A stretch of DNA of 64,000 nucleotides, from assembly GCF_964355755.1 (NCBI RefSeq), contig NC_092670.1, positions 19,020,795 through 19,084,794 of the forward strand, written 5' to 3'. The notes below the pieces were generated by a model. That model saw nothing but the letters and a program-made list of their open reading frames with translations. It was not told the origin of the DNA and made no database searches. Made by a program: the position numbers and the translations under genes. The stretch comes from Antedon mediterranea (lineage: Eukaryota; Animalia; Echinodermata). Of this stretch, positions 25,733 to 62,784 are shown piece after piece. Within the stretch, counting starts at the first letter, position 1. Each line of letters begins with the position of its first letter.

Positions 25733-27101
25733 CTATGTATTTTCGTTTTCTTTGTTATCAAACATTGAGACCAATAAATCGCGCTGACCTCCACCATTTT
25801 GAAACAATCGCATCTTCAGCGACGGTTTTGCAGGAGTTGGTAGTGATTTCTCATTGTCTGGAACATTTAGATCGTTTATGTTTGAAGGTCCTTAAATAAA
25901 GAACAAGAATCAATTATTATACTGTAGTATTATTTTAGAAGGAAGAGGTTATTGTTTCATGAACCTGGTCACAGCAGACCTGGCAAGGGGAGGGTAAACA
26001 CACAAGAATATAAATCCATGATTACACCATTGCAATAGAAAATGAATTCTATTGTTAATGTTTTCTATTGTACTATTGTATAACTTTACCTGGAGTTGAT
26101 AGCTGTTTACTTTCTACTCCCTTGAGAAGAAATTCAGGTATATTTGCTGGGTTAAAATCACAATCCTTCTTATGCATTGCAAGCTTTTGAAGTTGCCCGA
26201 TAAAAGCACATCCCAACTTGCGAAATGGACATGCAACCATGTGGTCTCCTATAATATTGGTCAATATGAAATCATTATGAAGCTGTGCTACCTGGAGTGG
26301 CATTCTAAGGAAGAATATTAAGATTTCATTTAAATAAAAAAACATAATATGTTGGTGTAATGATGAGAGATTTACCATATCTGTAGTAGGCCTAGCTGGA
26401 AACTTTGATATAATTTTACTTTACCTATCTTCAGGGCAAGTTTTCTTATGTTTTAACCATGCTGTTATGCACTAGGAGTAAAATAATAAATTAAAATAAT
26501 AACTAAATAGTATTTGTTTAAAACAATCACAAAGTCACAATACAATAGAATGTGAACACCAATGATTTTATTTGATATGAAATCCCTTTAGTCTTTATAC
26601 CTTCTTGCAGTAACTATGACCACATGGAGCACGCTGCGGTTTGATGAATACCTCTTGGCAAATTGAACAAAACAGATGTCGACTTACGGCTTCAGGATTT
26701 AGAAAATATCTAATATATAAGTAATCATGAAATTATTATAAAATATAAATAAAATTAAACAGATTATCATTATTTTAAAATGAAATGACTACTCAGCAGT
26801 CAGGGGTAGGGCCTACGCCTACCTGGTCCTAGCTAGGCTATTTATTAGATTACCTAAATAAATTAGGACTAATAATAATTGGCTAGCTAGGGCCTGATCT
26901 GACCCTCACTCGGCTATCTATCTATCCTGTACTACTACTACTAGAGGCTCTAGCTAGCCTACATAGGGCCTAGCCTAGACCTATGCGTTAATAACCATAA
27001 ATAAATAAGGCCAGGGCTAGGCCTAGCTCAGCTAGGTACCTTTCTTCTTCATCCTCATGCTGGTGATCATCCTCACGCTTTCGTTTCCTCTGCTGAGGCA
27101 T
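25733..27101 (-). CDS. RING-HC + TRAF/SIAH-type zinc-finger E3 ubiquitin ligase (RNF151/RNF41/TRAF N-terminus-like, no MATH domain), 196 aa
   Basis: Exons (minus): 27101-27040, 26709-26601, 26471-26425, 26304-26090, 25890-25733; 591 nt, open. Translation MPQQRKRKREDD...FCSICQEVFIKPQRAPCGHSYCKKCITAWLKHKKTCPEDR...VACPFRKLGCAFIGQLQKLAMHKKDCDF. This gives a C3HC3D-type RING, a C-x5-C-x11-H-x3-C finger, and an N-terminal NLS-like RKRKR. Confidence 0.88.
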
Positions 27102-27954
27102 AGCCTTGCTGCTATTGCTAATGAGTTTGTTCCTCTCTAACTAGCTGGGCTAGGCCTTTATAGTAATTATGATCAAAGAATATATATATTCTTTGTTATG
27201 ATCAAGTGCAAATTTATTTTTTAAATTTTGGCGCCGCTGATTATAGAGGGCGGCATTCATACTCCTTCATATTCTAATTTTCACCTTGGATCGCTCGTAC
27301 GATGTACGCACGCGCGTCCGATCGTAAACTACTATCAGAGCTAGCAATCGGATGAAAGGACGAGGCCATTACAAAACAGGGAATAAAACACTCACAAAGC
27401 TATTCAAATTCAGCAACCCATTCATTGGAGAAGCGTAATATTTGTCCCCTAATGTTATAATGGTATGGTCTTAAAGATTCATATAGCTTGAAGAAGCAAC
27501 AGCGGTGATGCAACATGTGCTTAGGCCCTCTACTACTAGCCTAGGCTAGGCCTAATAATATTTATCTAAAGCCTACCTAGCTAGCCTATTCTAGGCCTAG
27601 GAGATGAACGAGGTCGGGCTGGGGACCCGAATACTTTTCAGGACTCCAAACGTAAAAAAAAGTAAGTAGCCTACTACTACTACTAGCCTAGCTACTGTAC
27701 TGAACTGTAAATCCAAACATTCAGGGCATAGGCCTAGCCAGGGCCGGGGCGGCTACCTACCACTCACTCTGGTGGTGGAGCAAGCAATTGTCAAAAACCC
27801 AGGTCCCAGACAGAGGATTTGGCAGGGGTTTTGGAGGATGAGATATGGATGGACAATGTATGTTTAATTCAATAATATTAATGATAATAGGCCTACCTAG
27901 GCCTATATTATTATTATTATTATTAAATAGGCCTAGCCTATGTAGGCTATGTTT

Positions 27955-28834
27955 GGCGCTAGTTCCGTTTCGCACCTGTTTTTATTTCGACTTCCTTTTG
28001 ACTCCAAATTGTTAAGCAACTTATTGTGAATACCACACCTTAAAATTGGGCCTCATAAGTACTTTTATGAAGAAGAATCACATAAAAAGTAACTAATAAA
28101 TCCTTAAATTGATGATTTTACAGACATGTTTCTCGCATACCGTTCGCGAATTTAGCATACTCGAAGTTCAATATTTTCGTTTCTATGGAGCGCCAAAAGA
28201 GCAACAACAATAGATGGTTAAAAACTCCGTGGAATGCATTTATTATTGAAATACACGTTTAATTTTAATATATTTTGTCAATAAAAATGCTGTAACATTT
28301 TACTGCTAATAATTTGCTGTTTTCAAATAGCAACCAACCCTAGACCTAAGACTAAGACTATAAGACTAAGAGGAATATTATTTATTTATTTATCTACAGT
28401 ACATGTAATATGATGATGAATTTGTCGATTTTCATTCCTAAAAGTTCCTGCAAAAACCATGTACAGTATCAACAGTAATATTTTTGTTGCATTGACATTG
28501 ACAAAATATGATAAAATTGAACGTAATTTTCACCAATAAATGCATTAAATATACACAATTTATTGAGTTTTTAGCCCTCTATTATGATTGCTCTTTTGGC
28601 GCTCCATAGAACAACAACATTGAACATGGGAGTATGCGAAATTCACGAACCGATATGTGCGAGAGAAACACACCTGTAAATTCATCAATTTAAAGGATTA
28701 ATTTTTTACTCTTTGTGTGATCTCCTTCGTAAAAATATTGTTGAGGCCTAATTCTAAGGTGTGGTACTCACGATAAGGTTACTTAACCAATTTTGAGTCG
28801 AAATAAACGACAGGTGCGAAACGGAACTGGCGCC
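27955..28834. mobile_element. Foldback-like MITE with ~270-bp TIRs and perfect 8-bp TSD (ctatgttt); GG termini (Merlin/MULE-like)
   Basis: ctatgttt|ggcgctagttccgtttcgcacctg ... caggtgcgaaacggaactggcgcc|ctatgttt. Inner inverted match tctatggagcgccaaaagagcaa / ttgctcttttggcgctccataga. Confidence 0.9.
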
Positions 28835-28926
28835 CTATGTTTTAGGTCAGAGTAATGGTAATAACCCTAGCTAATTAAGTACTCTAGGCCCTAGGCCTAT
28901 TATTAAATTAGTAGTAGGCCTTAGGC

Positions 28927-29085
28927 CTGTCACACCAAAATTGGTCCTGCAGACCAGTTTTGGTGATGCCAAAATCGGTCCAGGGGACTATTTATGATTT
29001 ATGGCTACCAAAACCTGTCCGGCCTGGATAAAATCGGTCCGGGCAGTAACTGTTTTTGGCAGCCAAATATGGTTCGGTCTTACAA
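28927..29085 (+). mobile_element. Left end of the transposon family seen at 319-1988
   Basis: ctgtcacaccaaaattggtcc followed by repeated aaaatcggtcc/ggtccgg motifs. Confidence 0.55.
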
Positions 29086-30042
29086 ATATATGGTGTGCGA
29101 AATTAGTCATAATGTATATCATTCAAAAAATCCCATGAATAGTCATTATATTGAAAATTACAAGGTTTTATTTGTTATTTATAAATCGCCATACGGTAAT
29201 TATAGAAGGCGCTTCCGTTTGCTAAAAGTACGGTAAAATTGCATCCTAAAACTCGTACCTAAATATAAAATTTGTTCCTAAATATAAAACTCGTTCCTAA
29301 ATATTAAAACTTTTTCCCAAATATTAAAAACCTAACCCTCTAAATAATCTCTCTTAAATTAAAAACTAAAAAAAAAAGACATTAAGCAGAGTATCGAACC
29401 TCCAACCCCTTAAGCCAGAGCCTCATCACATGCCCACTAGGCTACACAGCTGGCTTGCAGAAAACCAATGCAATAACCTATTTGATTAACATCCACCTTA
29501 CATAGCGCCCTCTATAATTACTGTACCTTTAGTTTTTAAAAGTATTGATACGGTACCGTATCTTTAGCCATAACGAGTATACATTAAGCCTATTTTTTAA
29601 TTATCATTATTAGCAACTCATCAATAATTGTTAGCCTTTTTCGTGTACCATTTTGTTCTTTTGTTTTAAAATCTTTGTTTCTCCATGATTTAAAAAAATG
29701 TTTAGTGCCCAGGTAGAGTAGAGGTGGTGGTGGTGTCAGTGCATGAAGATCAGGAATCAGCTGGATGGGTGGTGAAACAATTTCTGAAAAATGTTTTGCG
29801 CTAACATTAAATTGCCTGTTCTACTTATTTTAGTAATAACTGTAAGGCAGCCCTCATTGATTAGATTCATAACTTGAAATAAAATGATCAATATGCCTGT
29901 TTGCCTGTTCTTCAGTAAAAAAGAATGGTATTCAATCTTAAGCAAATGCTTAATAATCATTTAACTGTTAAACAGTCACTGGACTTTTATTTCTCGTTGA
30001 TACCTGATCAAAATAGTAAATAGTAAAGCTCTCATAAACTAA

Positions 30043-30333
30043 GGGCCTGTTCAGACCTACGGAGTTATGCTTTCGTATTGTACACGGCGTACAACTCCAT
30101 AGGTCTGAACCAGGAAAAGATTAGTGTAAGCCACCTCGTACGACACATACTCTTTCGTTCGTTACGACAGCTCAAGGTACAAGATTAGTGAACGCCGCTT
30201 ACGATACCAAAGTTATGCATTAAAGTTTTTGACCTCTAACCAATCAAAATTACTCCTTTTCTGTTACAACGCTAATTATAATATGACACTGCTTGCGATA
30301 CGAAAGCATAACTCCATAGATCTGAACATACTC
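30043..30333. mobile_element. Harbinger-like MITE, TAA TSD
   Basis: taa|gggcctgttcagacctacggagttatgctttcgtat ... atacgaaagcataactccatagatctgaacatactc|taa. Confidence 0.75.
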
Positions 30334-30577
30334 TAAAACATTCAAATCCCGGATGTGAAACAACTGTTTGTTTAATTTGCCTCCATCCACCTCATCAGAT
30401 TACTCAAGTGCTGTGTGGTAAAATTCCTTGAAAATTTGTTTTATTAACCACATTTCATGCTTTCTTCTCCATGTTTGTAGTTACTAAGCAGAGCAGAACA
30501 AGTTTCTATTTATCCATTCACACACTACACCCTGCCACCTGAGTGGCCTGAATTAAATACTGAGCTTGGTACTAAAA

Positions 30578-30589
30578 GGGGAAATCCCC
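30578..30589. promoter_or_regulatory. Consensus NF-kB (kappaB) site GGGGAAATCCCC between the RING and CARD-CC genes
   Basis: Matches GGGRNWYYCC; G/C-rich motif in very AT-rich context. Function untested. Confidence 0.35.
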
Positions 30590-32270
30590 TAAACCCTCAA
30601 CCAACAAATCTTAGAAATAACACTTTTGATGTTTCCTTATTTTACAATGATTGGGTTGTTTGATTTCATTTTAACTGTATTAGTATTTGCTATACATACA
30701 ATAGTTATGTTTTTTTTAAAAATATGCTTCAATGATAATAACATCTGTTATATTTGATCTGAAATGAGTCATTCACACTCAGGAGGATTAAAGTCAATCT
30801 AGCTTAATTGTCTATAGATTACACTTACACCGTATATGTACAGTGTATGAATACATAGTATTAATATTGGTTTTGTTTTACTTTGTCGTTACCGGTATAG
30901 CGAATGTTCATAGATCCAGACAGAATGGTATGAATTATGAAAGGTCATAAAAATGTACATGTTTAACAAATATTCATACTCTTACACCATGGAGGTAACC
31001 ATCATGCTTCAACACAGTAAATAGTAAGAAAAATTCAAATTTAACCCATCAGAATTTTTCTAGCCCCAGCCTTTCAACCATTTCCTCCTCAATTACTCAT
31101 ATCCCTCACCCGCCCCATACTTTTTATAAACTGGGGGAGTACTAAACATATATTAATAATCTGTCAAAAGTATGTGGTGGCGGCGTTGGAAGCTGGATCC
31201 ACCCCTACTCCCATTTAAAATCCTTGATTGGTATGACACTGTATTTAGTCTGACTGAAATTGTACACCTTTGTTAATGACCACTTAATATCTAGGTACAA
31301 AGTATAAAAGTGCATGTACTTAAAACAAGGAGTTGTACTCCCTGCTTGAACTATAATCAATCAAGTGGTTTAGATAACATTTATTCTTTTGACACTTTTT
31401 TCAATACTGATAATAATATTAATTCCACGTGTATAAATATTGTATTACTGATTAGTGTCAAAAGAAATCTGCTAGTTAATCTGATTTGTCAGACACTTTG
31501 GTTAAAGATGTATTGTTCCACCAAAATCATGGAAAAATAAATATTTTACACTTAATATTAAAGTTGTTGACTTCCATATAAACAAAAATTAGCAAAAAGA
31601 ATGATTTCACTTATAAATAAAAGGACAAAAAACTGTTAATTTTTGCTTTAAATTACAATTTGTTCAGGTTAATTATTTTTTCAGCCATATTTTGTGTGTA
31701 TTAATTATGTGCTATATAATGGCATATATTCAACACCAAATTTTTTTTAGGAGGAAAATACATCATAATATAAATAAATAACATTTTTATGCATGACCTT
31801 GGTTAATAATTCCTGTAACTGTAGTACCAACGGAGGACATTTTGGCAAAATTCTGGACTAAAAGGGCTGCGCTTTCAGGCCTAAACAAATTGATTTGTCT
31901 ATATAAATAGTCCAATGTAACACCTTCAAGAAGAATAGAAATAACAATCTTATAATTAATTAACTAACAATATTGTAAAAAAAAAAAAATAAATTATAGA
32001 CGCATAAACTAGATAAAGTGTTGTTTTTTTTTTGTAAATATGAACTGCTTAACCCAGTGTGTGCTTTAAAATGTAATAAAGGCCAACAGGAAATATCAAC
32101 AGTGTATTATTGTTTTGTCAGCTTTAACCCGGACACACTGTACTATGTCAAGTACCATGTTCAGTAAAACTTTAAAGCTGCATTGATCTCCCAAGCAGCA
32201 GCAACATTGGACTATTATTGCTAATATTAGCTTATATTTAGGATTTGTTTGTAAATGTGTTTCTTTCTAA

Positions 32271-35200
32271 ATGATGAGATTCATCAGGCAACGAAGAGAT
32301 AGAACTTTGAGTTCAGGTAAGAGCTCAGCTTAATACACACATCTAATCCCACTCCACCTTTTGATTAAATAATCCTGGGATTTCTAGAATATTAGTCTGA
32401 AATATTCAGGATTACCCACTGTTCAGACGGTTCTTAATTTATTTTCTTTATTTAAATTTTAGGGCTGGATGCAACCAACCTTTACTATAACACTCCTAAG
32501 TGGTTCGATATTGTTTGCTTTTTAATATTCAATGCATTCATTTTAGTGTGCTTTTTAAAATAGAATCTGTAAAAAAAATATTGATTGGCAGCACTCATGC
32601 ATGGTAGTATAGAGAAAATGTTGTTTTGTTTTGACCTGTTTTAGAAACCTGTTTAATAATATGATATTTAGTTTTATAGAGTATGTTTAAATACTTCCTC
32701 CTAGAACTACGTGAACCATGAAATAAACAATAGGATACTCTTTTTGATATTTGCCCCATCTTTGATTAGCCTACGTTTCATTGCATTGTTGAATACTTAT
32801 AGTTAGTGGGTAGTGAACATAATCTACAGGTGATGTAATGTTTATTGGTGGATAGTTGTCCACCCTTTCACAACTTTGTGCGTTCAACTCACTTTTAGTA
32901 GACAACGGCAGAGCGTAGTGTAGAAATATTCAGAGTTTTTTTTCTTCAAATTGAAAAACTGTTTGCTAACTCCGTCTCATCTAGATTAATAGAAAAAACC
33001 ATAGAGATGTCAATACTTGATCAGTCTGCTGGTAAATCTATTATTGTAACTACCAAGAAGTAAAGCAGTATCATATTTTTCAACACTGTTTGACAGCAAA
33101 ATCGAGATTTTCAGAAAAATTTAATTCTTGTTGAAATAGAGTAGGAGTCAAGATTGTAACAAAACCATTTATTCATTCAATAAGTACGAATATAACAGGA
33201 AACTTTACACTGATCTGTTTCTAGGAAATGACTTTGGTTTCAAATTCTCGGAAAGCAAAGCTAAAATTACTATATTTACTACCACCAACTGAAGCATCTC
33301 TGCTTGTCTGGTCACCACACATTGCAAAAGTTTAAAAATGAGTAGCCTAGATTCTAGTACGTTTTTGCTCATTCTATAGATTTTTGGTAGTTTCTTTACT
33401 CAAACTTCTGGAATAATATATTAGTTTAACTGCCATAAGATATTAATTACTATTAAATATTGACTACCATAAGATATTACTATTAAATATGTATATACTG
33501 TAGTTACTCACTAGTAGATGTTTTAATCTAGTTTACTTTCATTTGATGTTTTTCAGATAACGAAATGAAGGAAAGCGTAGAAGACGCAGAATACGAAGAT
33601 TACAGAGTATTGTTAGAAGACAATCGGGAAAGTCTTGTGAAAGACATTAATGTTTCAGATTTCTTTTTTACACTTCGCAGTGAAAGTATTTTTGACATGA
33701 ATGATGAGCAAAGCATTACACAGAATTTGCGACTGTCAACTGACAAAGAAAAAGCAGGTACCGTATGTGTATGAAACATTTAAATATAATTAGTTTTTAG
33801 TAAGACTTATCCATCATAAAGCTGAATGAAAACTTAAATGTTGTTTTTTGTTATTTTTTTTTTATTGCTTCTGTCCTGGCGCCATTAAATATCCTAATTA
33901 TAGTCCAAAATAGTTTGAAAAAATTATCGTCTCTTATTTTCAAATCCTAGAACACTGTACATGTTAAAGTAATTTTAATGATCAGATTACATCTAAAAAC
34001 TTCCTAGACTTAGACTAACTATTATAAACAAAATGAAACTTCCTATTTCTACAACCTTCGAATGTTCATCTTCAATTTTCCATCTATTGTAAAATGAAAC
34101 ACATCATCTTAAATTATCTGGAAGAGGATATAGGATATTGTTTTCCTTAAATTAAACAGGGTTAGAAAAAGAAAAACAAATGGATTAATTGGGAAAATTT
34201 TCTTTTAAAATTTGTGTCACATTGTAGAATATTATTATGTTATAATATATGCATTTAATTGATGATTTCTTGTAACCTGACCATTTTTATTTGTAAAAAA
34301 GAAGTACAGATTTAATATTATTCCAAAACAATTAACAGGGTCTTTTAATTCGTCCTGTCATACACCTGGATATTGTTACACTTTAATTATTTTTTTCCAT
34401 TCGTACAAATTATCCAATTTTTCAACATAAACGTGTTGTTTGTACACAAATTTAGGTTATCCAAAACAAATACAATTTATAGCATTTAATACCATTTTGT
34501 TTTTTTTCCCGATGTATAATTGTTATTAAAATCCAAAATAAAATAAAAAATTAGAAAAAACAACAGTGGAATCATTTTAGCATTCTTAATTTGTTTATAT
34601 TCATATTTCATTTTTTTAAATTAATAATAAATTTAATGTGGGAAAATCAACAGTTGGCTAGACATCAATTGATTTAAAATAAATAAGCAAAAAGTACATC
34701 AATCAAAAAAGTATTACAGTAAATTGCAGTTATACATTGCTGTAACTTTGTTATTGTTTTATTTTTGCCAAATAGATTCAATTTAAAAAAAAGGAACAAA
34801 AATGTAAACATGTTTTTTTGTCTGAAAAAGTTCCCAAACAAAGTGTCAGAAGAATTGTCAACACCGTAAAAAGTTTTTTTTTTGCATGTAATATTGTTTA
34901 CGAGTGAAATTTGTCAGCAAAGTCTCTTGATATTCCTCCACAGTTTACAAGAAGGAAAATGTTTAGTCTCCCAAGGCGTTAGATTAATAATAGCTTGTAA
35001 GGTCCGTAGTTGTTTACTTTACTATGTACTTTGTTTATTAGCTTTTATCCCTCTTTAAACTTTCACTTTAGGGGGTATCGACACTGCCAAGTTGAGTTTT
35101 ACAAAGTGAAACTCTCTCCGTTAATTATAAAACGAAAATCTTTAAAAGACTAATCGTGCAATCAAGAAAGTAGGCAATTTATTAGTATGTATAATTCATT

Positions 35201-38200
35201 TTAATATATTCAATATTGAAATTGATTAATTTTGCAGTAAAATTAGTTGTTATGATATCTTTAAAAGACTAATCGTGCAATCAAGAAAGTAGGCAATTTA
35301 TTAATATGTGTAATTCATTTAAATATATTCAATACTGAAATTGATTAATTTGGCAGTAAAATTAGTCGTTATGAAATTGACCATTTTGACAATTATTGTA
35401 ACTTTGCAGGGAGACAAATATTTAGTTTTTCTACCTCTGTATTTTTGTTGCCAAAGGCTGGGGATACCAACTACAGTATTCTGAAAAAGACCCCTTTGTA
35501 TTGTTGTAGTAATAAAATTCAATACAAAGGTATTTTTTTCCTTCTTTTTTTACTTTTAAAAAATGTTCTGCCCTTGTGTTATTATTTGGTTTTCTCCCCT
35601 TCCATCTTGTAATATTTACAATGTTTGTCAGTTTTAAAGTTGGTATTGTGTAAATAGTTTTATTACTTACGGGAACTGCCAATATTCTAAAAAAAGAAGA
35701 ATATTTGAAAATATTAATAAACTGCACAGTTTAAACTGTATTAAGGAAGTCTATATTGAAAAAGGGTTTGATCCGGTTTCTGCTTCATTACAATCCCAAC
35801 AAGAAAACAATACATTTACAAGATGAATCATTGAAACGAAAATATTAATAATAATAAATAAGACTATTTTGATAGATTCCTATCTTATAAGGAAGTTCAG
35901 TTTGAAATAATTTTACTTATCCTGTTTAAAAAATATACCGTACTGACGCGGGTATAAGCCCACCCCCCTCGAACATGAAATCACGTCAAGTTTGGGGCTT
36001 ATACCCGAGGATCCAAAAATGCAGATCGTCAAAAACAGCACATGTACACTGTGTATTCCACCATGCGAGCGAGCGCCCTCACATGTACGACGTTGCCTCT
36101 AAATACACGAGGTGTAGAGTGTCGGAAAATTAAGTTTATAGTTCGTGTAATTTATCGTAAAATATCTTATTTTAAACATCAATTTAACAAGAATTTATCA
36201 AGCAGAAAAGCAAGTATACAATGTTCGTTAAATAGAAATGTACCAAAGAAATTTAATAAGTTTGTTTATGGCAGCCGATACCAAATAGTGGTTTTCCGTT
36301 TTGGCGACTTGTAGCGTCGTGTGTGAAGCGATCTTCGACCGCGATGGAGTGTAAACAAAACAGGACCGCTAGGCCTCATATGGCCTAGCGTATATTAGCC
36401 TAGCTTGGTTATGATCAAAGGTAGGTGTATTCGGTGTATGGACGTCGCCAAATACAAAATAATGTATTACGACACACACTGTAGATCTTCGAATTAATGA
36501 GTGGGCTTATACCCGAGTGCCTCATTTTTCATGAAAATTAGTCAAAAGTTGGGGGTGGGCTTATACCCGAGTATGGGCTTATACCCGCGTCAGTACGGTA
36601 GTTATATATTGATTTATCAAAGAAAACATCTCAAAATTAGAAAACTAAAATTGTTATTTCTGTGATTTTCTGGGTCTTTTCAATATAACGTTGTTTATAA
36701 ACCTAAACCAGGATGCAAAGTACCATTTGATTATAAATCTAAAAATACACAATAAATGGTTACATACATGGTCAAAGTGAATAACTATTATGACCTTAAA
36801 ATGCCATATTCAACAAAAGGAGTTAATGTTCAAATTATTTTTCAGGGAGACTTTAAGGAAGTTAATAAACTGTCTGTATATGAAATTTCTCCTATTTATT
36901 TTACCATGTTCTTGGCAACAAAACATGTTTGCACTTCCATTACTCCTCAATGAATCAATTATATCAAGGAAGTTTTTTTGATAAAAAGAAAATGTCTAAA
37001 AATAAGACATTTACAGTCTAAATTAATGATGATTGATTTACAATATGCTGTTTCAATATTAAAACTGATTTCCATTTAGTTGATAAAACATTGTAGTGGA
37101 TATTTAATGGGGTGTAAACGGATAATAAAACCATAAAGCTAACCCACAGATACCCATTTCATTACACTCCTCAGCAATCTATTTCGGAAGAATTTATTTT
37201 GAGGAGGACTTCATTTAGGGTCTGTTTCCCACATGGTGCCGAAGAAATCCATTTTCATTAATTCAAAATAGATTTTAGAATATAATTTGTTTTTATTGCC
37301 CACATTTCAGCTAAATGCAAAATACTGTTTGAATCTGTATTCAAACATTCAAGATGCTTGAAAGGTCAACGGCCAGAATTAAAGTTGCACTGCGATAACC
37401 TGAAATTATGTTATACTGTAGGCTTCTTTTTATATGGACTTCTTTGAAAAACCTTATATGGACTTCCTTGTGATGTGGGCCTTTTTAAGACCCTTGGGTG
37501 GACGACTTCCTTAGATTTACTTAAATCCTGCACTGAGCTTGTTTTTCAGTAATAAGTAAATGCTATATTATAATATGATTAGGATAAAGTGTAAAACCTC
37601 CGGATATGTATTTATGAATATAATATTCGTACATCCCACTACTGTACTACTTGAGAATGAGTTTGCACTTTTATCTACTACTTAGTTTTATGACCTTCAA
37701 CAGTTATTTTTATCATTTAATGTATTTTCAATTTCAATTTAAATACTTTATGGAAAAAAGATAAACAAAATTAGAGGACTTGCTGTATTCTAAAAAGGTA
37801 CTTAATCAATTCATTTTAAGAGAACTTCAGTTACGTATTCAAACTTGAGTTTGTCGGCAATTTCCTTTCTCCTGTTAAAGTCCATCCTACAACATAGACT
37901 TTTTAAGCAGACCAGAAGGTAGACAAACAAATCATTCACATTTATGAAAACAAAAATAGCATCAGTCATGATAGAATCATGATACCAGTTTTAAAATAAC
38001 TCTCAAATTATCAAACCTTTACAGAAAGTTTCCGATATTTTTGTTTCGTTTTTATGTTGGCTATTTACTTGTCTCACGTTAAACGTGAAGGATTACTCGA
38101 TTTCCTCAAACAATGTTTACCATTCAGTCAAAACTATTTACGATTAGATGTTGACTTACGCTGAAATGTCCGGGGAGTTTCGAAACACTAATGAAGTCTA

Positions 38201-41200
38201 ATTGGACATAATAAGAGATTCCTTCCTTTAGGTAAAGACTAAATATCCATATTACTCGCAACAACAATCATCATTTAAGTTTCAGACATTCAATGTACAC
38301 CTTGTGGTCTAGTTTAGTTGAGAATTGTTCAATGTATTAAATTAGATTTCAATAAGATTCAACACTGTAAAACCTGGATTTTTTAGTTTTTGCCTTGGAT
38401 TTTGGAGAACATTGGATTGTAAGTTTATTGTACATTAGTTTGTGTTTAAAAATATATATTTACGTGTTTACTTTTATTTTCTGTATATACTATAGTTAGT
38501 ACAGTTAGTGTTGGGGAAGATTAATTTTTTTTTTTATTCTAGACTCATTGGTTCAAATCACTTTGTAATACTAGAGCTACAAAAGTCCATTACTTTTGTA
38601 TTTTGAGTATGTTTTCTGAAATTTCTTTAAATGCCCTAAATATAAATAATAAAGAATCACACTAATAATTGCATCACCCATCAGAAATATATCAATCTAT
38701 TTTAATTTTGTTTTTAAGGTGCATTTTTGGATAAACTAGCAACCAAAGGAAAAATGGGGTTTAAAGTGTTCCTTGGGATCCTTGAGACAAGGTATCCTGA
38801 ACTCTATAAACAATTGTCTGGAAAAGAACCAGTTTCCCGAGGTAAGTTCTTAGCCATTAGTCTCCCATGAAACCACTGTGTTTAATTAAACCAAACCATG
38901 GTAGACTCAACCATTGTATTTTACCTAAAACTTGGTAGGCATACTTGAGCCCAAATCACAACTCTGTTAGAATAATAAGGAAATCATATAGATAAGTGTG
39001 ATTCAAATGGCTTCCGCAAAAAAAAAGTTGTCTTCCTTCTTTCTATTGTATGTACTTTGTAATCATACAATATGATTGGTATATATTCAATCCAGAAATC
39101 TTTGGTGGTGGCAGTAAATGTTACCGTAAATCTTCTAATTGTAACCATGGGTTATTATTCTTTGATTGTTTTTTAGGGTGGGTTACTAATAGAAGTGGGG
39201 TTACAATTTAGAGTAGGTTACTACTTTCCGGGCAGCAACTTATAGCAAAATAATAAAACCGTACGAATGAACAAATTTGGTTGAACTTTATAAACTCAAA
39301 AACACTCCATCCTCCCCCACTCCCGAGATCAACATGCATTATCTCCTTATTTTCAAAATACGGCCAGTTTTCATAATGAAAAGAAAAATATAAAATAAAC
39401 AAATTTCTCAGTCTTGTCACAGTTTTTACTAGATTCAAACTACAGCTTATGCTAACTGTATGCTTTTGTCGTTGTCATTTCAATCATGCCTATTTTAAGG
39501 AATAAATCAAATGTTGATTTTAGTGTCGTTTTGTTAATAGTGTTTGTGATTCTAATAGTAACCCCTATGGTTACTATTAAGTAACCCCTATGGTTACTAT
39601 TAGAGTAGTGGGTTATTATTATAGATTGATTTATAAGGTGGGTTACTATTAGAAGGTGGTTACTACTATTACAGTATTAGAGTGTGGGTTATTATTATAG
39701 ATTGACCCATCCGTTAACAGTAACCCCTATGGTTACTATTAAGTAACCCCTATGGTTACTATTAGAGTAGTGGGTTATTATTAGAGATTGATTTATAAGG
39801 TGGGTTACTATTAGAAGAGGGGTTACTATTAGAGTGTGGGTCATTACTATTAGAAGATTTACGGTAATTAACTAATCTGTAATGTAGATGTGTTCATTAC
39901 GTACTAGTTGCACACCTAAGATACTTAACGGAAAAGTTGTCAAAATTCCAAATGATAACCTGTACTGTACATTCTTATAAATCAGTTGATGTAACAGCTT
40001 CCAATTGCTTCTATTCTACTGCCCCTTATTTCATTAAATCTGAAATTTAGATGTTACAGAAGTAATTGGGAGTAACTTGATTTTGGTTTGTATGCGGGTG
40101 CAGATCACCCTAATAATATTAGGTTTCTTCTTTGTTGGTGTCATTTTATTTTTGTTTTTTATTTGTAAATTATTGGATATGAATCAATTTGTTTTTTGTA
40201 CCTGGTGATGCCAGACTCAAAACAAAACTGAAATACATAGATTAGTTGGTACAGTTTATAGAGAGGGAATTTAAATAATAGCTGTAAAACATTTCAGTCA
40301 ATTGTCATTCCATAGAAAAGTGGCAGATTGTGTTCTTCTAATTATCTTAATATTGAACATAACATCAACACAAACAGAACATGCCAACAGTTGTGTTCAC
40401 ATTTGAAGATCCCATGCACATGTTCCGCAGAAAATAAGGACATAGGTTTCCAAATGAGCAGTTTACTCTTCGTTTAAGTTCTGTCTACACTATCAAACAG
40501 TTTGATGTGCCCCAATATGGTAGTGATATGCCCAAATAGGGTAAAGATATGACATCATCATGTCCATATATGGGCACATAAAATGTTTTTGTCACATAAA
40601 GTGTGATAGTGTAGACAGAGCTTTATTCAAAAACCTGTTTACATTGGCCAAATGGAAAGCTTCAGTTATTGACACCTTTGCCATAATTTAACGGTAAATT
40701 TCATCTCTTTTTCAATGTCAACAGTTGTAGCAGTCCGTTCCATCCCCACTTAAAAATGTTCAGTTTAATAAATGTTCTTTACAAATAACTGACAGTTTCC
40801 TTTTAAAAATGATAGTAACAAAGTGTTGCTATTTTTGGCTACACTCAATACAAAATATTTAATAATTCGTATGCAGAATTACAGGTTGTATTTGTGCTTT
40901 TGATTACTAAACCTGATTGTTTGCAAAGTAATGTACTTTTGTGTATGAAATGTATTAGAAGCTAAATAAGTTATTATGGCCTCATTTGTTAACATCCTTG
41001 GTTATTGGAACTGTGTGGGCTGCAGCCATTTCGATTTCCTTTTCCTTATTATGGTACCAGATAAAGCTTTTAAATGCTAGGAATTAGTTTTTTAAAGATC
41101 ATACAGTGTATTGTCCTTTCAAAATGAGTCTTTTGTGAAAAGGATAATCTTGATCTGTATATTTAATAGAAGGCTTTCTTTTTGTTGAAATAAAGTTTGC

Positions 41201-49002: not shown

Positions 49003-49138
49003 AGCTCTGTCTACACTATCAAACTTTATGTGACAAAGAAATGTGATGTGCCCATTATTGTCATGAGGATGTCACACCACTACCATATTTAGGCAAGTAA
49101 CACTTGTTTTGTCAAACTAGTTTGATAGTGTAGACAGT
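49003..49138. mobile_element. Harbinger/Tourist-like MITE (same family as 20363)
   Basis: taa|agctctgtctacactatcaaac ... gtttgatagtgtagacag. A ~40-bp flank (tagtttaagtg..taatgtaga.cat.atgacat.cataa) is repeated on both sides. Confidence 0.8.
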
Positions 49139-51206: not shown

Positions 51207-51486
51207 CACTGTCTCTACTCTTTCTACCTAGCCTACCTCCGCACACTAGCTGGTTTACCTCCCATATGTGGTGGTGGAAAATTGAGAGATAGCACATTGC
51301 TGGCTCTAAGGTTTTGGCAAAAATATTAATAGGCGTCCATTTTACCGCCCATATACTTGACATTGTAGACATACACAGTATTAAAGATCACTCATATTTC
51401 AAATAGGTGTCGCTACAAGTAATTGTCCTGACGATATTTTACTTGTTGTTTCAGATATAATCGAATAGAGATCAAAGAATTGCGAA

Positions 51487-53987
51487 ATGCCTGGGTAAGT
51501 CTCAATTTGGAAATTATGCAAATCGTTCAAGCCAAAACATCTAATTAAAATATAAAATATTTAAACAGAGGGTAGGCCTAATATTTTAAAGGTTAACAAC
51601 TCTCGTTTTTTTTTAAACAATCACCCATAAAGTATACTAAAACAACAGTCTCAATTAAAAAAAACTACACATAATGAATATTTATAATAGTATTTAACAT
51701 GGTAACTCTATCTTTTTAATCAATTTTTTTTTTATAGAAATTCATCGTCAACAAACTACGGCTTTGGAGAAGTATCAAGAAAAAGAGGAGAATGGAAAAA
51801 ATATGCAGCATGTGTTTTTGTTGGTTTATTTGTTGGTCTATTGGGGTGGATGGCACCAGTTGTTCCACTGCAAAGAATTAAACAAATATCTGTGAATGGG
51901 ACAAAGCTTGACCAACCCGATTTGTACTTCCTTAATATCTACCACTTGGTATTTTTTCTGCCTATAGTGTTTTACAGCGCCATCATTGTGAAATGGCTCC
52001 AGTGCTTTTTTGTGATGGTAGAAGAATTAAAACACATAAAAACTCGTCATAAGAACTCATTTCGCACATTAGTTGAGAACTGCTACCAAGTTTTCTGGAC
52101 ATTAAAATCGTGGGTAGGACTTGGGATTTCATTGCTTATTGTGCATTGGATGAGAAGTATGGATAAAGAACTATTTGATAACCATTTTGTAATGTACTGG
52201 CCGATTGTGGTAACATCCGTTGGTATTAACTTAATTACCAACTACATACTGGGTTTTGAGGTTTGTATCAAACTAAATGAAAGTATACAGCTAATTTACA
52301 GACGACAATGTCCAAATTTATGGGAATCTGTTTAATTGCTTATGCAGATTTGGAAAATATCTAGTTTTGGGATAGTTTCTGATTTTCCAAGTATTCACTG
52401 CTTTAATTGATATAGTATTAACCTGACAGAATGTCTATTAAACACCATTCTAGGCTAACTAACATTTTTGTGCCCAGTGGACTAGTTCTCATCAAGCTTA
52501 TTTAACAGTAATCTTTATTATTCAGCGACATTTATAGTAATGCACTTGTTATTTTAAACTTTGCAGACTCTATCAGTTGTTGAACTGAGTGAAATCCATG
52601 AATCTAGCAATGTCTATGTCGCACAGGGCCTAGCATGGAGTTACTTCACTGGCTATCTCAAAATTATTCTGAAAGGTTTGTAATTTAGTGCATTTTTAAG
52701 ATTCATTACTTTTACAAAATTAACTTCAAACTTTATTTTTTGCATTTAGAAACTTTTTTTTTTTAAACAGAATTGGTTAAAGTAGAGTAGGGGTTACCCT
52801 GGTGTATTGGTTAGTTTCAATGTGTCCTGAAAAAACGAATGAGCGATGTTTATTGGAAGCGGTATGATGACTATTGTGTAGATTGTCCCAGTTACGCTAC
52901 ACATTTACAAAACAGGCTTTTTCTTTTTTTTTTTGCAGATCTTCAAGGAACTATTAAGAAAGATGAAAAAAAGTGGAAAAAAGAATATGAAGATGGAAAC
53001 TTGCAAAGCAAATTTTATGCTATTATTCCTCTCAACTGTAAAATTCCTTCCAAACTTGGAGAGAGTGAAAAACACAGAGGAATTACTTTTGAGGGCAAGC
53101 TGCCTACTTTGTTTGTCGATCGTGCAGGTGTAAAAGACAGACCTTACGTTAATTCAGTTTACAAAATTGACAATGAAAAAGGCGAAGTAAGTATAAATAG
53201 ATAATTTATTGTTGTTCTATCAATCTTTACAACAAGAGAGTGACTAAATCTACTAAACATTGTCTCTTGTTTGCTGCAGGAATGTAAAAAAAAAAAGATG
53301 TTATCTGTCAATGCTTTTTTAATGTAAAAATGTCTTCTTCTTTTAGTATCACTATGCCATTTGTGAATATGTGACCATCATTGATACACTGTTCCAGATG
53401 CCTTCATGTACTGATTTTGACCCACAAAACCGTGAAGAACAGTGCCGCTTGCTTGTCAGGAAACTTAGGGAATTGATTGAAAGTGATGATGAATGTCGAG
53501 AAAAATGCGTAATTGTGATGTTTTCAGGTAATCTTTTTTTTACTATTGTGTCATTTCCAATAGAATATATTTGGTGAAATTTGTGACATGTCAGTTAACA
53601 ATGGTTTGACATCCCTTTGTTCAGATAAAGGACTTGACCTGTGACAAGCTCTGTGTTGGCCATTTATGTACAATTCTAAACTTAATTGTAAATGATGCAA
53701 AACTGATTCATTTACTTTGTCTAAAGCTCTGTCTACACTTGATGTGGAAAAAAATGTGATGTGGCCATATATGGACATGGTGATGTTATATCACTAATTT
53801 AAGCGTATCACTACCATATTTGGGCACATCACACTTTTTTTGTCAAACTAGTTTGATAGTGTAGACAGAGCTTAATAATCATGTTAATAATGTTATTGCT
53901 TTTCTTTCAGGGGAAGATGAAGGCCCTCTATTAAGAGATGTTCTTCTTGACAGAATAAAAGAAAACCGGTTACAGATCAATGGCTAG
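51487..53987 (+). CDS. STING1: STING paralogue A (stimulator of interferon genes), 381 aa, no C-terminal tail
   Basis: Exons 51487-51494, 51738-52260, 52567-52675, 52939-53186, 53347-53527, 53911-53987; 1146 nt, open. Motifs: VSRKRG, four TM segments, [81 protein letters not shown]. Confidence 0.95.
53725..53872. mobile_element. Harbinger/Tourist-like MITE in the last intron of STING-A, TAA TSD
   Basis: taa|agctctgtctacact ... gtttgatagtgtagacagagct|taa; absent from the equivalent introns of STING-B and STING-C. Confidence 0.85.
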
Positions 53988-56456: not shown

Positions 56457-56493
56457 CTAGATGGTACGCGAGCGAAGCGAGCGTACCATCTAG
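56457..56493 (+). other. Perfect 13-bp-stem hairpin ending in CTAG|T; probable Helitron 3' terminus
   Basis: ctagatggtacgc-gagcgaagcga-gcgtaccatctag|t. The GCGAAGC mini-hairpin plus terminal CTAG before T fits Helitron ends. 5' end not located. Confidence 0.5.
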
Positions 56494-56703
56494 TATTATT
56501 AATTTTTCTAAATCTTCATATGTGTTCGCATTATGTAACACAACGACAACATATTGTTCATTTAAATTTAGATACAAACATTTGTTGATCATTTGCATAT
56601 GAACGAGACGAGATGTGCCAAGGGTCGTTGTCAACAATGGCCTCATAACGGTCGTCATAAATTTATAATTGTAACCAGTAGTATTGAGTCTACAATTTTT
56701 ACA

Positions 56704-58556
56704 ATGGCGGGGTAAGTTTTCCCTGTTTTCTGTTACTAAAGATAATTTAAACTGTAAATTACGATTCCATAATATATTTTGTATTGTAGGTGTGATCACT
56801 GCATTGCAAACAACACACCGGGAACAACTCACATACTTATGTGGTGCCGAAAAAACGAGGTGAAAGGACACGATATACGGCCAACTTGTTTTGTTTTCTA
56901 TTCGGTATTTATAGTTTTTATTTGATCGCAACTACAGTTCAACTTGAAAAGATGGAAGAAAGAAGCTTTTGCAACTGGACACTAACGGCTGGCGAAGAAG
57001 AGTTATGTCTTGTCCGTGAATACAACCATGTATTCTCTCTGCCTGTCCTATTTTTCAGTGCCATCATCTCAAAAATTGTTATGTGCTTGTTCGTGTTGGC
57101 CGAGGAATACAAGCACAAGCAAAGTCGCCACAATAATTCAAACCGCCAGTTGCTTAAAAATTGCTTCCAGGTATTTCTGACAATGAATTTTTTAGTGGGA
57201 TTTTGCATTTTACTGGTTTCCCTATATTGGATAAGGAGTAAAGATATATATCTTTTTACCAATCACTGGTCACTCAACTGGCCAAACATCATAACGTCGG
57301 TCGGTGTCACAGTCATTACGAACTACGCATTTGGTTTCAAGGTTTGTACAGTTTTTTAGTAGGGCCTATATGATATTCTTAACATAAATAGGCTAATTTT
57401 GGACTTTTATGAAGCTGTTCTTAACTAGTTAACCAGTTGACCCACAACAATGAGCCATTTTTGTAGTTGTTTTTATTTTTTTTTATTTTCTATAGTCACT
57501 ATCAGTTGTTGAAAACAGTGAAATCCATGAATCTAGCAATATCAATGTTGCACAGGGTCTAGCATGGAGTTATTTTACCGGGTATCTAAAAATCATTCTG
57601 AAAGGTTTGTGAATTAGCTTTTTTGCCTTAAAAATCAAAAAATAAACAATAACAAATCTTCAAAAATAATTTTTAAAAAAATACTTTATTTAACACTGTG
57701 CATATACTAGTCTTCTTTCACATCGTCTGTTCTCTGAATTATATTACTAATATATAAAGTCATTCATTCTTTTACATTAAGCTGTATGAATATATCATTT
57801 TATCTCAGATCTTAAAGGAACTATAGAAAAAGATGAAATATGGAAACGTGAATTAAATCAGGGAAACCTGCAGTGCAAATTTTATGCTATTATACCTCGG
57901 AACTGTAGCATTCCTTCCAAACTTGGAGACAGCGACAAACACAGAGGAATTACAATTGTCAGTGATTTACCGGTTGTTGAAGAACCTCGTGCTGGTGTTA
58001 CCAGGAGGTACATTAATTTAGTCTACAAAATTGAAAATGAAGAAGGAGTTGTAAGTAAAATCTGTACTGTAGTGCTAGTTCATATATAATAAATGGATAG
58101 CTAAGAAGTGGTTACTTTTTACAAAATATTTCAATATAGAGCCTTTTCTTTCAGTCGCACTATGCCATTTGTGAATATGTGACCATCATTGATACACTGT
58201 TCCAGATGTCTTTGTATACTGAATTTAATGCACAGAAACGTGATGATCAGTGCCGTTTGCTCGTCAGAAAACTTACGGAACTAATTGATAGCAACGAAGA
58301 TTGTCGAAATAAATGCGTCATTGTGCCTTTTTCAGGTAAACACAAAATAGTGTCTAAACCAATCATGTTTGCCCTGAAATTGTATGCGTGACTTTGTTTT
58401 ATTTAAGAACATACAATCTTGATCTGAAATGGATTAATTTACTTTGCCTAACAAATTTGTTTAATTTATTGGTTTTTTTCAGGTGCAGATGATGGCCCTC
58501 TGTTAAGAGATGTCCTTCTTGATAAAATCAAAGAAAATCGGGTACAAATTAATTAG
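56704..58556 (+). CDS. STING1: STING paralogue B, with an apparent 1-nt frameshift at the start of exon 2 (possible pseudogene, variant allele or assembly error)
   Basis: Exons 56704-56711, 56790-57341, 57496-57604, 57809-58050, 58155-58335, 58483-58556; total 1166 nt, not a multiple of 3. Otherwise intact: [62 protein letters not shown]. Confidence 0.9.
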
Positions 58557-59936: not shown

Positions 59937-62784
59937 ATGGCTAGGTAAGGTTCCTCATAATTATTCTATGCTGATAAAAATATTATGATGTAAGCCTCTT
60001 ACAATAGTGGGGCTGATATTAAGTGGAGTGGTATTGATATTAAGTGGAAAGAGCTGATAACGTCAGCTCCATGATCTATGCTATAGTAAATATAATTTTA
60101 ATTGTTTCACCATTCCAATGGTTATTCACCAAACCCCAATATTACGGTACCAATTACGGCATTATTTATCAATAGGAATTCTTATTCTTCTGGGTGTCGA
60201 GAGATACCAAAAAGGCGAGGCAAGGCCAATGAAATTGCAGCAATTATTGTTGGTATATTATGTATGATTTATTTGTGTGTGGTGTGGATGATTATCAAAG
60301 TGGAAACGCTAGGCGAAGGTGACATATTCTTTCAATGTATGTATAACTCTCTATCTGCTCTGCCAGTGATGTTGGTCTGTACCATCATTACAAAATGGTT
60401 TTTTTGCTCTTTTGTGCTGATCGAAGAACAGAATCACACGAAAAGTCGTTACGATGGTAACAGTTGGCTGCTATTTAAGAACTGTTTCCAGGTATTTTTG
60501 ACAAGAAATTTCGTCTTAGGAGTAGTATTCTCCATTGTTATTGTGATTTTGGTGATAAGTAGCGGTACAGATAGTTTTTACAAGTTCTTCGTCACCAGCT
60601 GTCTGAATTCCATAACAGCAATCGGTGTTTCAATCATTACAAACTACATTTTCGATTTTAAGGTTGGTACGTATAGGCTGTAGTATAATATAAATAAAGT
60701 TTGATACCAATTAAAATATATTTGTTGATTAATTTTATTTATAAATATCACAGACACTATCAGTTGTTGAGCTCAGTGAACTTGATGAATCTAGTAATAC
60801 CAATGTTGCAAAGGGCCTAGCATGGAGTTACTTTACTGGATATCTGAAAATCATTTTAAACGGTATTTATCAACCATTATAAAGTAGTATTTTTGCTAAT
60901 TAATTTTAATTTCTTAGTCTTTGACTAATCTTTAATTGCTTAGTCTTTGACTAATCTTTAATTTCTTAGTCTTCGACTACTCTTTAATTTCTTAGTTGTT
61001 GACTAATCTTTAATTGCTTAGTCTTTGACTACTCCTTAATTTCTTAGTCTTTGACTAATCTTTAATTGCTTAGTTTTTGACTAATCTTTAATTTCTTAGT
61101 CTTTGACTAATCTTTAATTTCTTAGTCTTTGACTAACCTTTAATTTCTTATAGTCATTGACTAATCTTTAATTTCTTAGTCTTTTTTGACTAATCTTTAA
61201 TTTCTTAGTCTTTGACTAATCTTTAATTTCTTAGTTTTTGACTAATCTTTGATTGTTTAGTCTTTGACTAATCTTTGATTTCTTAGTTTTTGACTAATCT
61301 TTGATTGTTTAGTCTTTGACTAATCTTTAATATCTTAGTCTTTGAATAATCTTTAATTTCTTAGTCTTTGACTAATCTTTGATTGTTTAGTCTTTGACTA
61401 ATCTTTGATTTCTTAGTGTTTGACTAATCTTTGATTGTTTAGTCTTTGACTAATCTTTAATTTCTTAGTCTTTTTTGACTAATCTTTAATTGCTTAGTCT
61501 TTGACTAATCTTTAATTTCTTAGTTTTTGACTAATCTTTAATATCTTAGTCTTTGAATAATCTTTAATTTCTTAGTCTTTGACTAATCTTTGATTGTTTA
61601 GTCTTTGACTAATCTTTGATTTCTTAGTCTTTGACTAATCTTTGATTGTTTAGTCTTTGACTAATCTTTGATTTTTTAGTGTTTGACTAATCTTTGATTG
61701 TTTAGTCTTTGACTAATCTTTGATTTCTTAGTTTTTGACTAATTCTTAATTTCACTTAAAAATGTACTGTTTTTAGTATTAGTATTATTTAGTATTATTC
61801 TTATTTTATATCTTTGCAAATCATGGGAATAACACACATCAATCATTTTGTATCATTGATTGGTTGTAAGGTTCGTGTTTCACAAGAAAAAGTTATAGTA
61901 ATACAAAACAATTCTTTTCCATCAGATCTTAAACAAACGGTCGAGAACGATGTAAGATGGAAACAAAAATTGGAAAACAAAACATTAAAATGTGTATTCT
62001 ATGCTATTGTACCTCTGAACTGTAAAGTTCCTGCTGATTTGATTGAATATAAGGAAGGTATTACGCGTGTGGGTGAGTTGCAACCTGTGTCAAAAAATCG
62101 TGCTGGTATGAAAAGGGAGTACACTATTCCAGTATACAAAATTGAAAAAAAAAACAACGAAGTGAGTATAGACTTTAAGAAGTGCATGTGCGCAGCTTCT
62201 ACTAAAGACATTAAAATAAATATTTGACTGGTATTTGCATATACAATATTTAGTCATAGTCTTTAAATCAGTCCATTAAGTAAGTGTGACTATAAGAAAT
62301 CTTATTTTTTAGCCACCATTCTTTGTTATTTGTGGGTATGTGACCATCATCGATACGCTGTTTGAGATGACTAACTTTATTAAATTTGAAGAAAAGAAAC
62401 GTGAAGAGCAATGTCTACTGTTCATAAGGACACTTCAGGAATTAATTGACGACAATTGCGAAGAAAAGTGCGAGATTGTGACTTTGTCAGGTAAGCCTTG
62501 AGTACCAAAGATGGAGAAGGGTAGTAACACTATATTTTGTCTGCCTAGATTGCGTAACGTAGGCCTTCTCTACACCTACACACAAAAAACCTCCTATATG
62601 TTGAGCTATTTGACACATAAAGAATTAACCGGTAATATTAAGTTCAACAGGCTTTTGAAATCTTGGCTAATCAATGTCATTTTTAGGTGACGACTCTCTG
62701 ATAGATGCTCTTTATAAAAAAAGAGAGAAAGAGAACAAGAACGAGGGCGGAGAAACTCGACTGTCAATGAGTACTGATGTATAA
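59937..62784 (+). CDS. STING1: STING paralogue C, 371 aa, divergent pocket and short C-terminal extension
   Basis: Exons 59937-59944, 60176-60662, 60754-60862, 61926-62161, 62313-62490, 62687-62784; 1116 nt, open. Motifs: [64 protein letters not shown]. Ends ...[22 protein letters not shown]. Confidence 0.93.
60905..61755. repeat. Minisatellite, roughly 32 copies of a 26-bp unit tttaatttcttagtctttgactaatc, in STING-C intron 3
   Basis: Head-to-tail degenerate copies; each unit contains the palindrome ttagtc-ttt-gactaa. Confidence 0.95.

What the first reader, a model, noticed from the sequence alone, without database searches (positions are those of the whole stretch)
25733..62784. Linked innate-immune cluster: TRAF-like RING E3, CARD9/CARMA-like adaptor and three STING receptors
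Seen: five consecutive genes encode a RING+TRAF-type Zn-finger ligase (head-to-head with the CARD gene), a CARD-coiled-coil protein and three tandem STINGs, with no unrelated gene detected between them. Established: CARD9/CARD11 nucleate BCL10-MALT1 and use TRAF6-type RING ligases to activate NF-kB, and many invertebrate STINGs lack the vertebrate TBK1/IRF3 tail and are thought to signal mainly to NF-kB or autophagy. In humans these genes are unlinked. Inference: this could be a co-regulated cyclic-dinucleotide to CARD-CC to ubiquitin to NF-kB module, in which the CARD-CC protein supplies the scaffold that tail-less STING lacks.
Basis: partly seen in the sequence, partly recalled or inferred. 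Interest (0 to 1): 0.85.

Follow-up and report, generated by a model that had tools for sequence, protein, structure and literature searches.

The report
Feather-star STING array beside CARD scaffold
A feather-star genome carries a row of duplicated STING immune-sensor genes that likely differ in the signal molecules they bind, next to a CARD scaffold gene and a small predicted ubiquitin-ligase gene; the genes are real, but their being neighbours is likely coincidence rather than a shared pathway.

Summary
All five genes are real, in the stated order. My exon models equal Antedon mediterranea RefSeq proteins letter for letter. Spliced contigs confirm all RING introns and place the CARD gene's first exon about 0.5 kb from the RING start, head-to-head.

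Corrections: the RING protein (196 aa) is not a TRAF. It has one zinc finger and no MATH domain, and its best solved match is LNX1. The STING array is larger than three: a fourth fragment starts at the window end, and RefSeq lists eight STING genes in one accession run.

The STING-to-CARD-CC-to-NF-kB module is unsupported. Amphioxus orthologs look unlinked by an accession proxy (one outgroup). Invertebrate paracaspases failed to induce NF-kB in human cells (PMC5978004). Tail-less fly STING uses FADD (PMC13144350), and crinoid STINGs keep a basic residue at that site.

Best reading: a crinoid STING expansion with diverged ligand pockets, a known kind, beside functionally unrelated neighbours. 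Echinoderm synteny was not testable.

The parts
25733..27101 (-). Small RING E3 candidate, 196 aa: basic N-terminus, C3HC3D RING, one zinc finger, short conserved C-terminal motif; LNX/RNF151/NRDP1-like module, no MATH. Exons 27040-27101, 26601-26709, 26425-26471, 26090-26304, 25733-25890
   Evidence: identical to P0002; 4 of 4 introns joined in X9, 2 of 4 plus the 25889-26089 joint in X5
27147..27603 (.). Short interval between the divergent RING and CARD transcripts; likely bidirectional promoter
   Evidence: RING contig reaches 27146; CARD first exon donor at 27661; 502 nt between the start codons; higher GC, 0.42 in 27001-28000
27604..48226 (+). CARD-coiled-coil gene (CARD9/CARMA family), 7 RefSeq isoforms of 550-666 aa with alternative first exons (27604-27661, 32271-32316, others); CARD about 34-117, coiled coil about 140-430, Ser-rich tail, no PDZ/SH3/GuK
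51487..53987 (+). STING-A, 381 aa, canonical dinucleotide pocket, no C-terminal tail
   Evidence: X5 contig covers exactly exon 2 with 0 differences
56704..58556 (+). STING-B. The expected exon-2 acceptor reads GG, not AG, at 56820-56821; RefSeq starts at the ATG at 56952 (331 aa, without the first hydrophobic segment); one-residue gap in the lid
59937..62784 (+). STING-C, 371 aa, divergent pocket (Gly at human E260, Ile-Pro at N242-S243, one-residue lid gap) and a short basic tail
   Evidence: X5 contig covers the last exon and 3' flank with 0 differences
63923..64000 (+).
   Evidence: 52% over 25 aa to P0144, E 4.9e-5 within the window; a stop lies upstream in that frame

Best explanation
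The region holds a tandem array of STING genes (three whole copies and the start of a fourth in this window, likely eight in all) whose products likely bind different cyclic dinucleotides and likely signal without a tail, and the array sits, probably by chance, beside a CARD-coiled-coil gene and a small RING gene that likely share a promoter with each other. Steps: (1) inferred: cGAS-like enzymes make cyclic dinucleotides on infection. (2) Shown in sequence: A, B and C keep the core pocket residues, while C-type copies change E260, N242 and S243; predicted: different ligand preferences, as measured for coral STING paralogs. (3) Inferred: bound STING oligomerises and recruits a death-domain adaptor (FADD/caspase-8 with IKK) on the oligomer surface, as in Drosophila, and may also drive autophagy (recalled). 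(4) Inferred: the CARD-CC works separately in a Syk/PKC to BCL10-paracaspase pathway. (5) Inferred: the RING protein is a conserved, possibly nuclear E3 of the LNX/RNF151/NRDP1 module type with no special tie to STING.
For: Tandem duplication: A, B and C share intron positions and phases, with pairwise dN/dS 0.27-0.59 (6 of 6 comparisons below 1). Eight RefSeq STING genes lie on one 41,379,608-nt sequence with accessions XP_071962897 to XP_071963006, in one run with CARD and RING; identities 41-97%. Two Anneissia STINGs share one 337,817-nt scaffold. Pocket: R232, R238 and Y240 equivalents in 10 of 10 crinoid rows; E260 is Gly in 2 of 10 (numbering from the alignment). Expansions of 3-10 STINGs with distinct ligand preferences are published (PMC9980059 section 8); Anneissia has 47 cGLRs and 3 STINGs (its supplement 5). 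FADD route: fly STING R240, E183 and D184 are needed for signalling (PMC13144350 section 11). By eye against the fly sequence, R240 matches K289, invariant in 10 of 10 crinoid rows, where human and Nematostella have Glu; E183 matches Glu in A and B. Unlinked in amphioxus by proxy: RING ortholog XP_035683074/XP_078606484 (longest contig 25,575,982) against CARD-CC XP_035694610 (22,407,120) and XP_078610193 (23,080,657); STING EukProt P016027/P016041 against RING P014665. RING look-alike clusters include arthropods and flatworms, and the protein is 62-64% identical to amphioxus orthologs against about 20% for the CARD-CC.
Against: The synteny test is a proxy (contig lengths and accession distance) in one outgroup. 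It assumes numbering follows genome order, and STING was never compared directly with CARD-CC outside Antedon. No echinoderm or hemichordate neighbourhood was seen; a lineage-specific cluster could still be functional. CARD9, CARD11 and BCL10 were reported in mouse STING complexes (PMC7914255). RING and CARD start 502 nt apart, which favours co-regulation of those two. The FADD-site match is by eye and partial: D184 is not matched, and STING-C lacks the Glu. The paracaspase assays were done in human cells and no echinoderm protein was tested. The positions of five of the eight STING genes are inferred from accessions, not seen.
Confidence: 0.72

Rival explanations
1. First reader's module: activated tail-less STING oligomers would nucleate the neighbouring CARD-CC, which would seed BCL10-paracaspase filaments, with the RING ligase adding ubiquitin chains for IKK; linkage would be kept for co-regulation.
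For: All five genes are adjacent and have spliced or exon-bounded contigs in one run, X5. The CARD keeps the arginine of the BCL10 face (R56, invariant in 36 of 36 rows; its role as CARD9 R35 is recalled). No TBK1 or TRAF6 motif in the STING tails. Mouse CBM proteins were seen in STING complexes (PMC7914255).
Against: The RING lacks MATH and further fingers and is nearer LNX1 (2.2e-16) than TRAF6 (1.7e-7). No TRAF6 motif in the CARD-CC. Invertebrate paracaspases lacked NF-kB scaffold activity. Fly STING needs no CARD-CC. Amphioxus genes look unlinked.
Confidence: 0.1
2. Shared regulation without a shared pathway: the STING array would sit in an infection-responsive chromatin domain with the CARD-CC gene, so the genes are co-induced but act in parallel arms, and only RING and CARD are mechanistically paired (for example the RING would ubiquitinate the CARD-CC or BCL10).
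For: Divergent starts 502 nt apart with RNA-like support; only 3260 nt between CARD and STING-A.
Against: RING and CARD-CC appear on different amphioxus sequences. The CARD gene has other first exons 5-6 kb away. Short divergent promoters commonly join unrelated genes (recalled). No expression levels are available from contigs.
Confidence: 0.18

Closest known systems
Multi-copy invertebrate STING repertoires (Stylophora pistillata 7, Crassostrea virginica, Mytilus 5-9, Anneissia japonica 3; PMC9980059 section 8 and supplement 5; PMC12424679 supplement 2)
   Same: Membrane domain plus dinucleotide-binding domain, several paralogs with pocket changes, no vertebrate tail.
   Different: Eight RefSeq genes appear to lie in one tandem block in Antedon; ligands untested; copy B has a defective first acceptor in this haplotype.
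CARD-CC family (CARD9, CARD10/11/14; invertebrate CARD-CC of PMC5978004)
   Same: N-terminal CARD matching CARD11 and CARD9 structures (E 2e-11 to 3e-7, 7 of 7 PDB hits), long coiled coil, Ser-rich linker; nearest Atlas clusters are CARD9 (0.96).
   Different: No PDZ/SH3/GuK, unlike the hemichordate and amphioxus homologs scanned; only 20-30% identical to any non-crinoid protein; BCL10 binding untested.
LNX1/2, RNF151, RNF41/NRDP1 and TRAF6 RING-zinc-finger modules
   Same: C3HC3D RING followed by a zinc finger; Atlas structure TM 0.51-0.56 to RNF151, NRDP1, LNX2 and a TRAF cluster.
   Different: Stand-alone 196-aa protein with no PDZ, USP8-binding, coiled-coil or MATH domain. It belongs to a small conserved invertebrate family that sources name inconsistently (PDZRN3-like, LNX-like, RNF151-like, RNF41).
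Drosophila STING-FADD-DREDD-Relish pathway (PMC13144350)
   Same: Tail-less STING; basic residue at the R240 position and Glu at the E183 position in A and B (by eye).
   Different: No FADD or caspase gene in the window; D184 not matched; recruitment outside insects is untested, as the paper itself says.

Membership tests
STING (TMEM173) | Membrane domain fused to a STING ligand-binding domain | tested here: met
   Pfam STING_LBD and STING_TM for A and C whole and for the exons of B; PDB phmmer 7e-34 to human STING. B's RefSeq model lacks the first hydrophobic segment.
STING (TMEM173) | Dinucleotide-contact residues S162, Y163, Y167, R232, R238, Y240, T263, T267 | tested here: met
   Present in A, B and C; E260 is Gly in C.
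STING (TMEM173) | Binding of a cyclic dinucleotide and oligomerisation | not testable with these tools
   Needs a binding assay.
Vertebrate-type STING | 40-50 residue tail with pLxIS, TBK1 motif or fish PxExxD motif | tested here: not met
   No PxExx-acidic/aromatic motif in 10 of 10 tails; the loose PxPLR pattern hit only the last helix; one weak pLxIS-like string in C only (motif definitions from PMC13144350).
CARD-CC (CARD9/CARMA) | N-terminal CARD of the CARD9/11 type followed by a long coiled coil | tested here: met
   the coiled coil rests on a crude heptad and charge scan and on homology over residues 25-430.
CARMA (CARD10/11/14) | C-terminal PDZ-SH3-GuK | tested here: not met
   None at E up to 0.05.
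CARD-CC (CARD9/CARMA) | Nucleates BCL10-paracaspase | not testable with these tools
   R56 is invariant; no Antedon BCL10 sequence was fetched.
TRAF (TRAF6-type) | RING plus adjacent zinc finger | tested here: met
   Ligands C35, C38, C50, H52, C55, C58, C69 and an Asp, then C98, C105, H117, C121; TRAF6 hits at 1.7e-7.
TRAF (TRAF6-type) | Further zinc fingers, coiled coil and C-terminal MATH/TRAF-C receptor-binding domain (definition recalled) | tested here: not met
   The protein ends at 196 aa with a stop supported by spliced contigs; 0 of 12 Pfam families is MATH or zf-TRAF; amphioxus orthologs are 174-203 aa.
Conserved functional gene cluster | Neighbourhood kept in related lineages | tested here: inconclusive
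   Apparently absent in amphioxus by proxy; no echinoderm or hemichordate genome could be read.
Conserved functional gene cluster | Co-induction and physical or genetic interaction | not testable with these tools
   Only contigs were available, which give no expression levels.

The most novel reading that the evidence does not exclude
Crinoids have assembled an operon-like immune locus in which an array of about eight tail-less STINGs with diversified ligand pockets signals through the adjacent MAGUK-less CARD-CC and its promoter-sharing RING ligase: a direct STING-to-BCL10/paracaspase route that replaces the vertebrate tail and would reveal the sought ancestral input of the CBM complex.
Probability: 0.1. 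Interest if true: 0.8.

Novelty: new member of a known kind. Interest (0 to 1): 0.3.

Why it matters
How tail-less STINGs reach NF-kB outside insects, and what the invertebrate CARD-CC/BCL10/paracaspase complex does, are both stated as open (PMC13144350 section 14; PMC5978004 abstract). A true STING-CARD-CC module would answer both, but the evidence here does not favour it. What remains useful is modest: a natural panel of about eight linked STING paralogs with pocket substitutions for ligand-specificity work in a deuterostome, and a testable prediction that crinoid STINGs use the FADD-type surface.

Tried and rejected
No whole genome was held, so direct synteny searches were impossible. The metagenome scan with the RING alignment gave 1 weak locus from 157 pattern matches (35% identity, 1.8 kb), of no use. 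Exon-based homolog searches found only close records (1 of 39, 3 of 9 and 10 of 1684 candidates) and no Anneissia CARD-CC or RING, which is weak evidence of absence. Complex prediction of the STING-A ligand domain (2 copies) with CARD-CC residues 20-445 gave no verdict (score 0.00, alignments not used, controls not folded). The quick tree of 48 of 78 CARD hits left the Antedon protein on a long, unresolved branch, so no CARD9-versus-CARMA orthology is claimed. A search of papers for neighbouring accession numbers found 0. The Culbertson and Levin supplement was read only to place 32 of 98, all CD-NTase rows. No run was on record as RNA; X5 and X9 are read as RNA-like only because contigs skip introns. 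Searches for a published STING-CARD-CC cluster listed none, but the library lacks most subscription papers. Earlier scan notes held nothing on this locus. Rejected: 'TRAF6-like ligase' (no MATH); 'PLLR' as a TBK1 motif (it lies in the last helix of the ligand domain); a PDZ link through STING-C's C-terminal end (not kept in its nearest paralog P0145, and the Antedon CARD-CC has no PDZ).
Full report
Source and gene models. The window is AT-rich animal DNA. I built exon models from the sequence. Single exons used as queries returned RefSeq proteins of the feather star Antedon mediterranea. My models for RING, CARD, STING-A and STING-C were identical to P0002, P0001, P0005 and P0006, and the STING-B model from 56952 to P0144. 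No whole genome was held.

Transcript support. Nine runs hold the region, none on record as RNA; I laid 4 of them, then 2. Contigs of X5 (same organism code) and X9 (a relative) skip the RING introns at CT..AC ends: 4 of 4 in X9 and 3 of 4 in X5. An X5 contig joins 27661 to 33557 (GT..AG), which is the first exon of RefSeq isoform X1. X5 contigs also cover exactly CARD exon 46590-47023 and STING-A exon 2, and parts of B and C. Contigs give no expression levels.

The RING gene is not a TRAF. It encodes 196 aa: a basic N-terminus, a RING ending in Asp and one zinc finger. None of 12 Pfam families at E up to 0.05 is MATH or zf-TRAF. The best solved matches are LNX1 (2.2e-16) and LNX2 (3.7e-11), ahead of TRAF6 (1.7e-7). 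Amphioxus orthologs have the same size and 62-64% identity. Atlas look-alike clusters are led by molluscs, arthropods, flatworms and cnidarians, and its model resembles RNF151, NRDP1, LNX2 and a TRAF cluster about equally (TM 0.51-0.56). Without MATH it cannot dock on receptors as TRAFs do (established knowledge, recalled).

The CARD gene is a CARD-CC member. All 7 PDB hits are CARD11 or CARD9, and the nearest Atlas clusters are CARD9. The profile search gave 78 hits; I looked up 18 and 11 carried names: hemichordate, amphioxus, echinoderm and mollusc proteins, mostly named CARD9/11/14-like. R56 is invariant in 36 of 36 aligned rows. There is no PDZ, SH3 or GuK and no TRAF6 motif.

The STING array. 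A, B and C share intron positions and show dN/dS 0.27-0.59 in 6 of 6 comparisons. A fourth membrane-exon fragment begins at 63923. RefSeq has eight Antedon STING genes on the same 41.4-Mb sequence, with accessions running 071962897-963006 between and around those of CARD (836-885) and RING (996). I infer one block; five of the eight were not seen in place. Core pocket residues are kept, while C and its paralog P0145 have Gly at E260 and Ile-Pro at N242-S243, and B and C have a one-residue lid gap. None has a vertebrate tail. In B the acceptor at the position used by A and C reads GG, and contigs of other samples begin to match only at 56843, so this haplotype may carry a damaged 5' end. Such expansions are known: 88% of animals have one STING, some have 3-10, and coral paralogs differ in ligand preference (PMC9980059, passages and section 8). 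Anneissia has 3 STINGs and 47 cGLRs (supplement 5 rows).

Is the linkage meaningful? The only outgroup I could test was amphioxus, by proxy. The RING ortholog record lies on two contigs, the longer 25,575,982 nt; the CARD-CC records lie on 22,407,120 and 23,080,657 nt, and accession gaps are 11,536 and 3,709. Amphioxus STING EukProt numbers P016027 and P016041 (PMC12424679, supplement rows only) are about 1,360 from the RING's P014665. This suggests no ancient three-gene cluster, if numbering follows genome order. It says nothing on other echinoderms, and STING and CARD-CC were not compared directly.

Is the proposed pathway needed or plausible? In PMC5978004 (passages and section 7) lamprey, hemichordate and cnidarian paracaspases did not induce NF-kB in human cells, the conserved TRAF6 site is limited to jawed vertebrates, and CARD-CC co-occurs with Syk. 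In PMC13144350 (abstract, sections 11 and 14) tail-less fly STING recruits FADD on its oligomer through R240, E183 and D184, residues said to be kept only in invertebrates. Reading the fly sequence by eye, R240 corresponds to K289, invariant in 10 of 10 crinoid rows; E183 corresponds to E223 in A and a Glu in B but Val in C, and D184 is not matched.

Verdict. The most likely history is a crinoid tandem expansion of STING beside an unrelated CARD-CC/RING divergent pair (0.72). Shared regulation without a shared pathway (0.18) and a true module (0.10) are not excluded, because echinoderm synteny, expression and binding could not be tested. My paper searches listed no report of this neighbourhood. 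The supplements of PMC5978004 and PMC13144350, which I did not open, may list echinoderm CARD-CC proteins and the alignment of the FADD site.

Noticed in passing
P0001, P0045, P0047, P0077, P0123 versus P0028, P0042, P0049, P0030: 0 of 5 echinoderm CARD-CC proteins scanned have PDZ or GuK, while 3 of 3 hemichordate ones have PDZ and 1 of 1 amphioxus has GuK above Pfam cut-offs. This suggests the CARMA-type MAGUK fusion predates jawed vertebrates and echinoderms lost it, against the statement in PMC5978004 that the fusion happened in jawed vertebrates.
   Followed up: partly
window 8463-22386 (+): Multi-exon coiled-coil gene with a CCDC154 Pfam hit (3.6e-6, below the cut-off) and a Lys/Asp/Glu-rich last exon; tail-to-tail with the RING gene, 3346 nt away. 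A non-immune neighbour. Human CCDC154 and RNF151 both lie on 16p13.3 (recalled, untested).
   Followed up: partly
window 56704-56951: STING-B has a first exon like those of A and C and an open frame with a hydrophobic segment upstream of the RefSeq start, but no AG acceptor at the homologous place; contigs from X5, X6 and X8 match only from 56843.
   Followed up: partly
window 62750-62784: STING-C ends in a short tail with a weak pLxIS-like string and a class I PDZ-ligand-like end (motif class recalled); neither is kept in its nearest paralog P0145.
   Followed up: partly
P0008 versus P0144: A 155-aa RefSeq STING is 97% identical to STING-B's C-terminal half, pointing to a very recent duplication or conversion elsewhere in the array; P0009 stops early in the ligand domain.
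   Followed up: no
window 60901-61753, 47063-47690, 35138-35374: Intronic tandem repeats: 26-nt unit x32.5 in STING-C, 218-nt unit x3 and 119-nt unit x2 in the CARD gene.
   Followed up: no
window about 44565-44716, 49000-49140, 53740-53875, 55200-56750, 27900-28900: Very high-copy interspersed repeats, by contig depth; a contig of the related organism joins 55215 to 56843 over only about 535 nt, so the 1.6-kb repeat-rich stretch before STING-B may be a recent insertion.
   Followed up: no
window 51752-52094 versus 26089-26709: Contigs of the related organism differ by 16-26 of 343 letters in the STING-A membrane exon but by 6 of 216 and 0 of 109 in RING exons; paralog mis-mapping was not excluded.
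   Followed up: no
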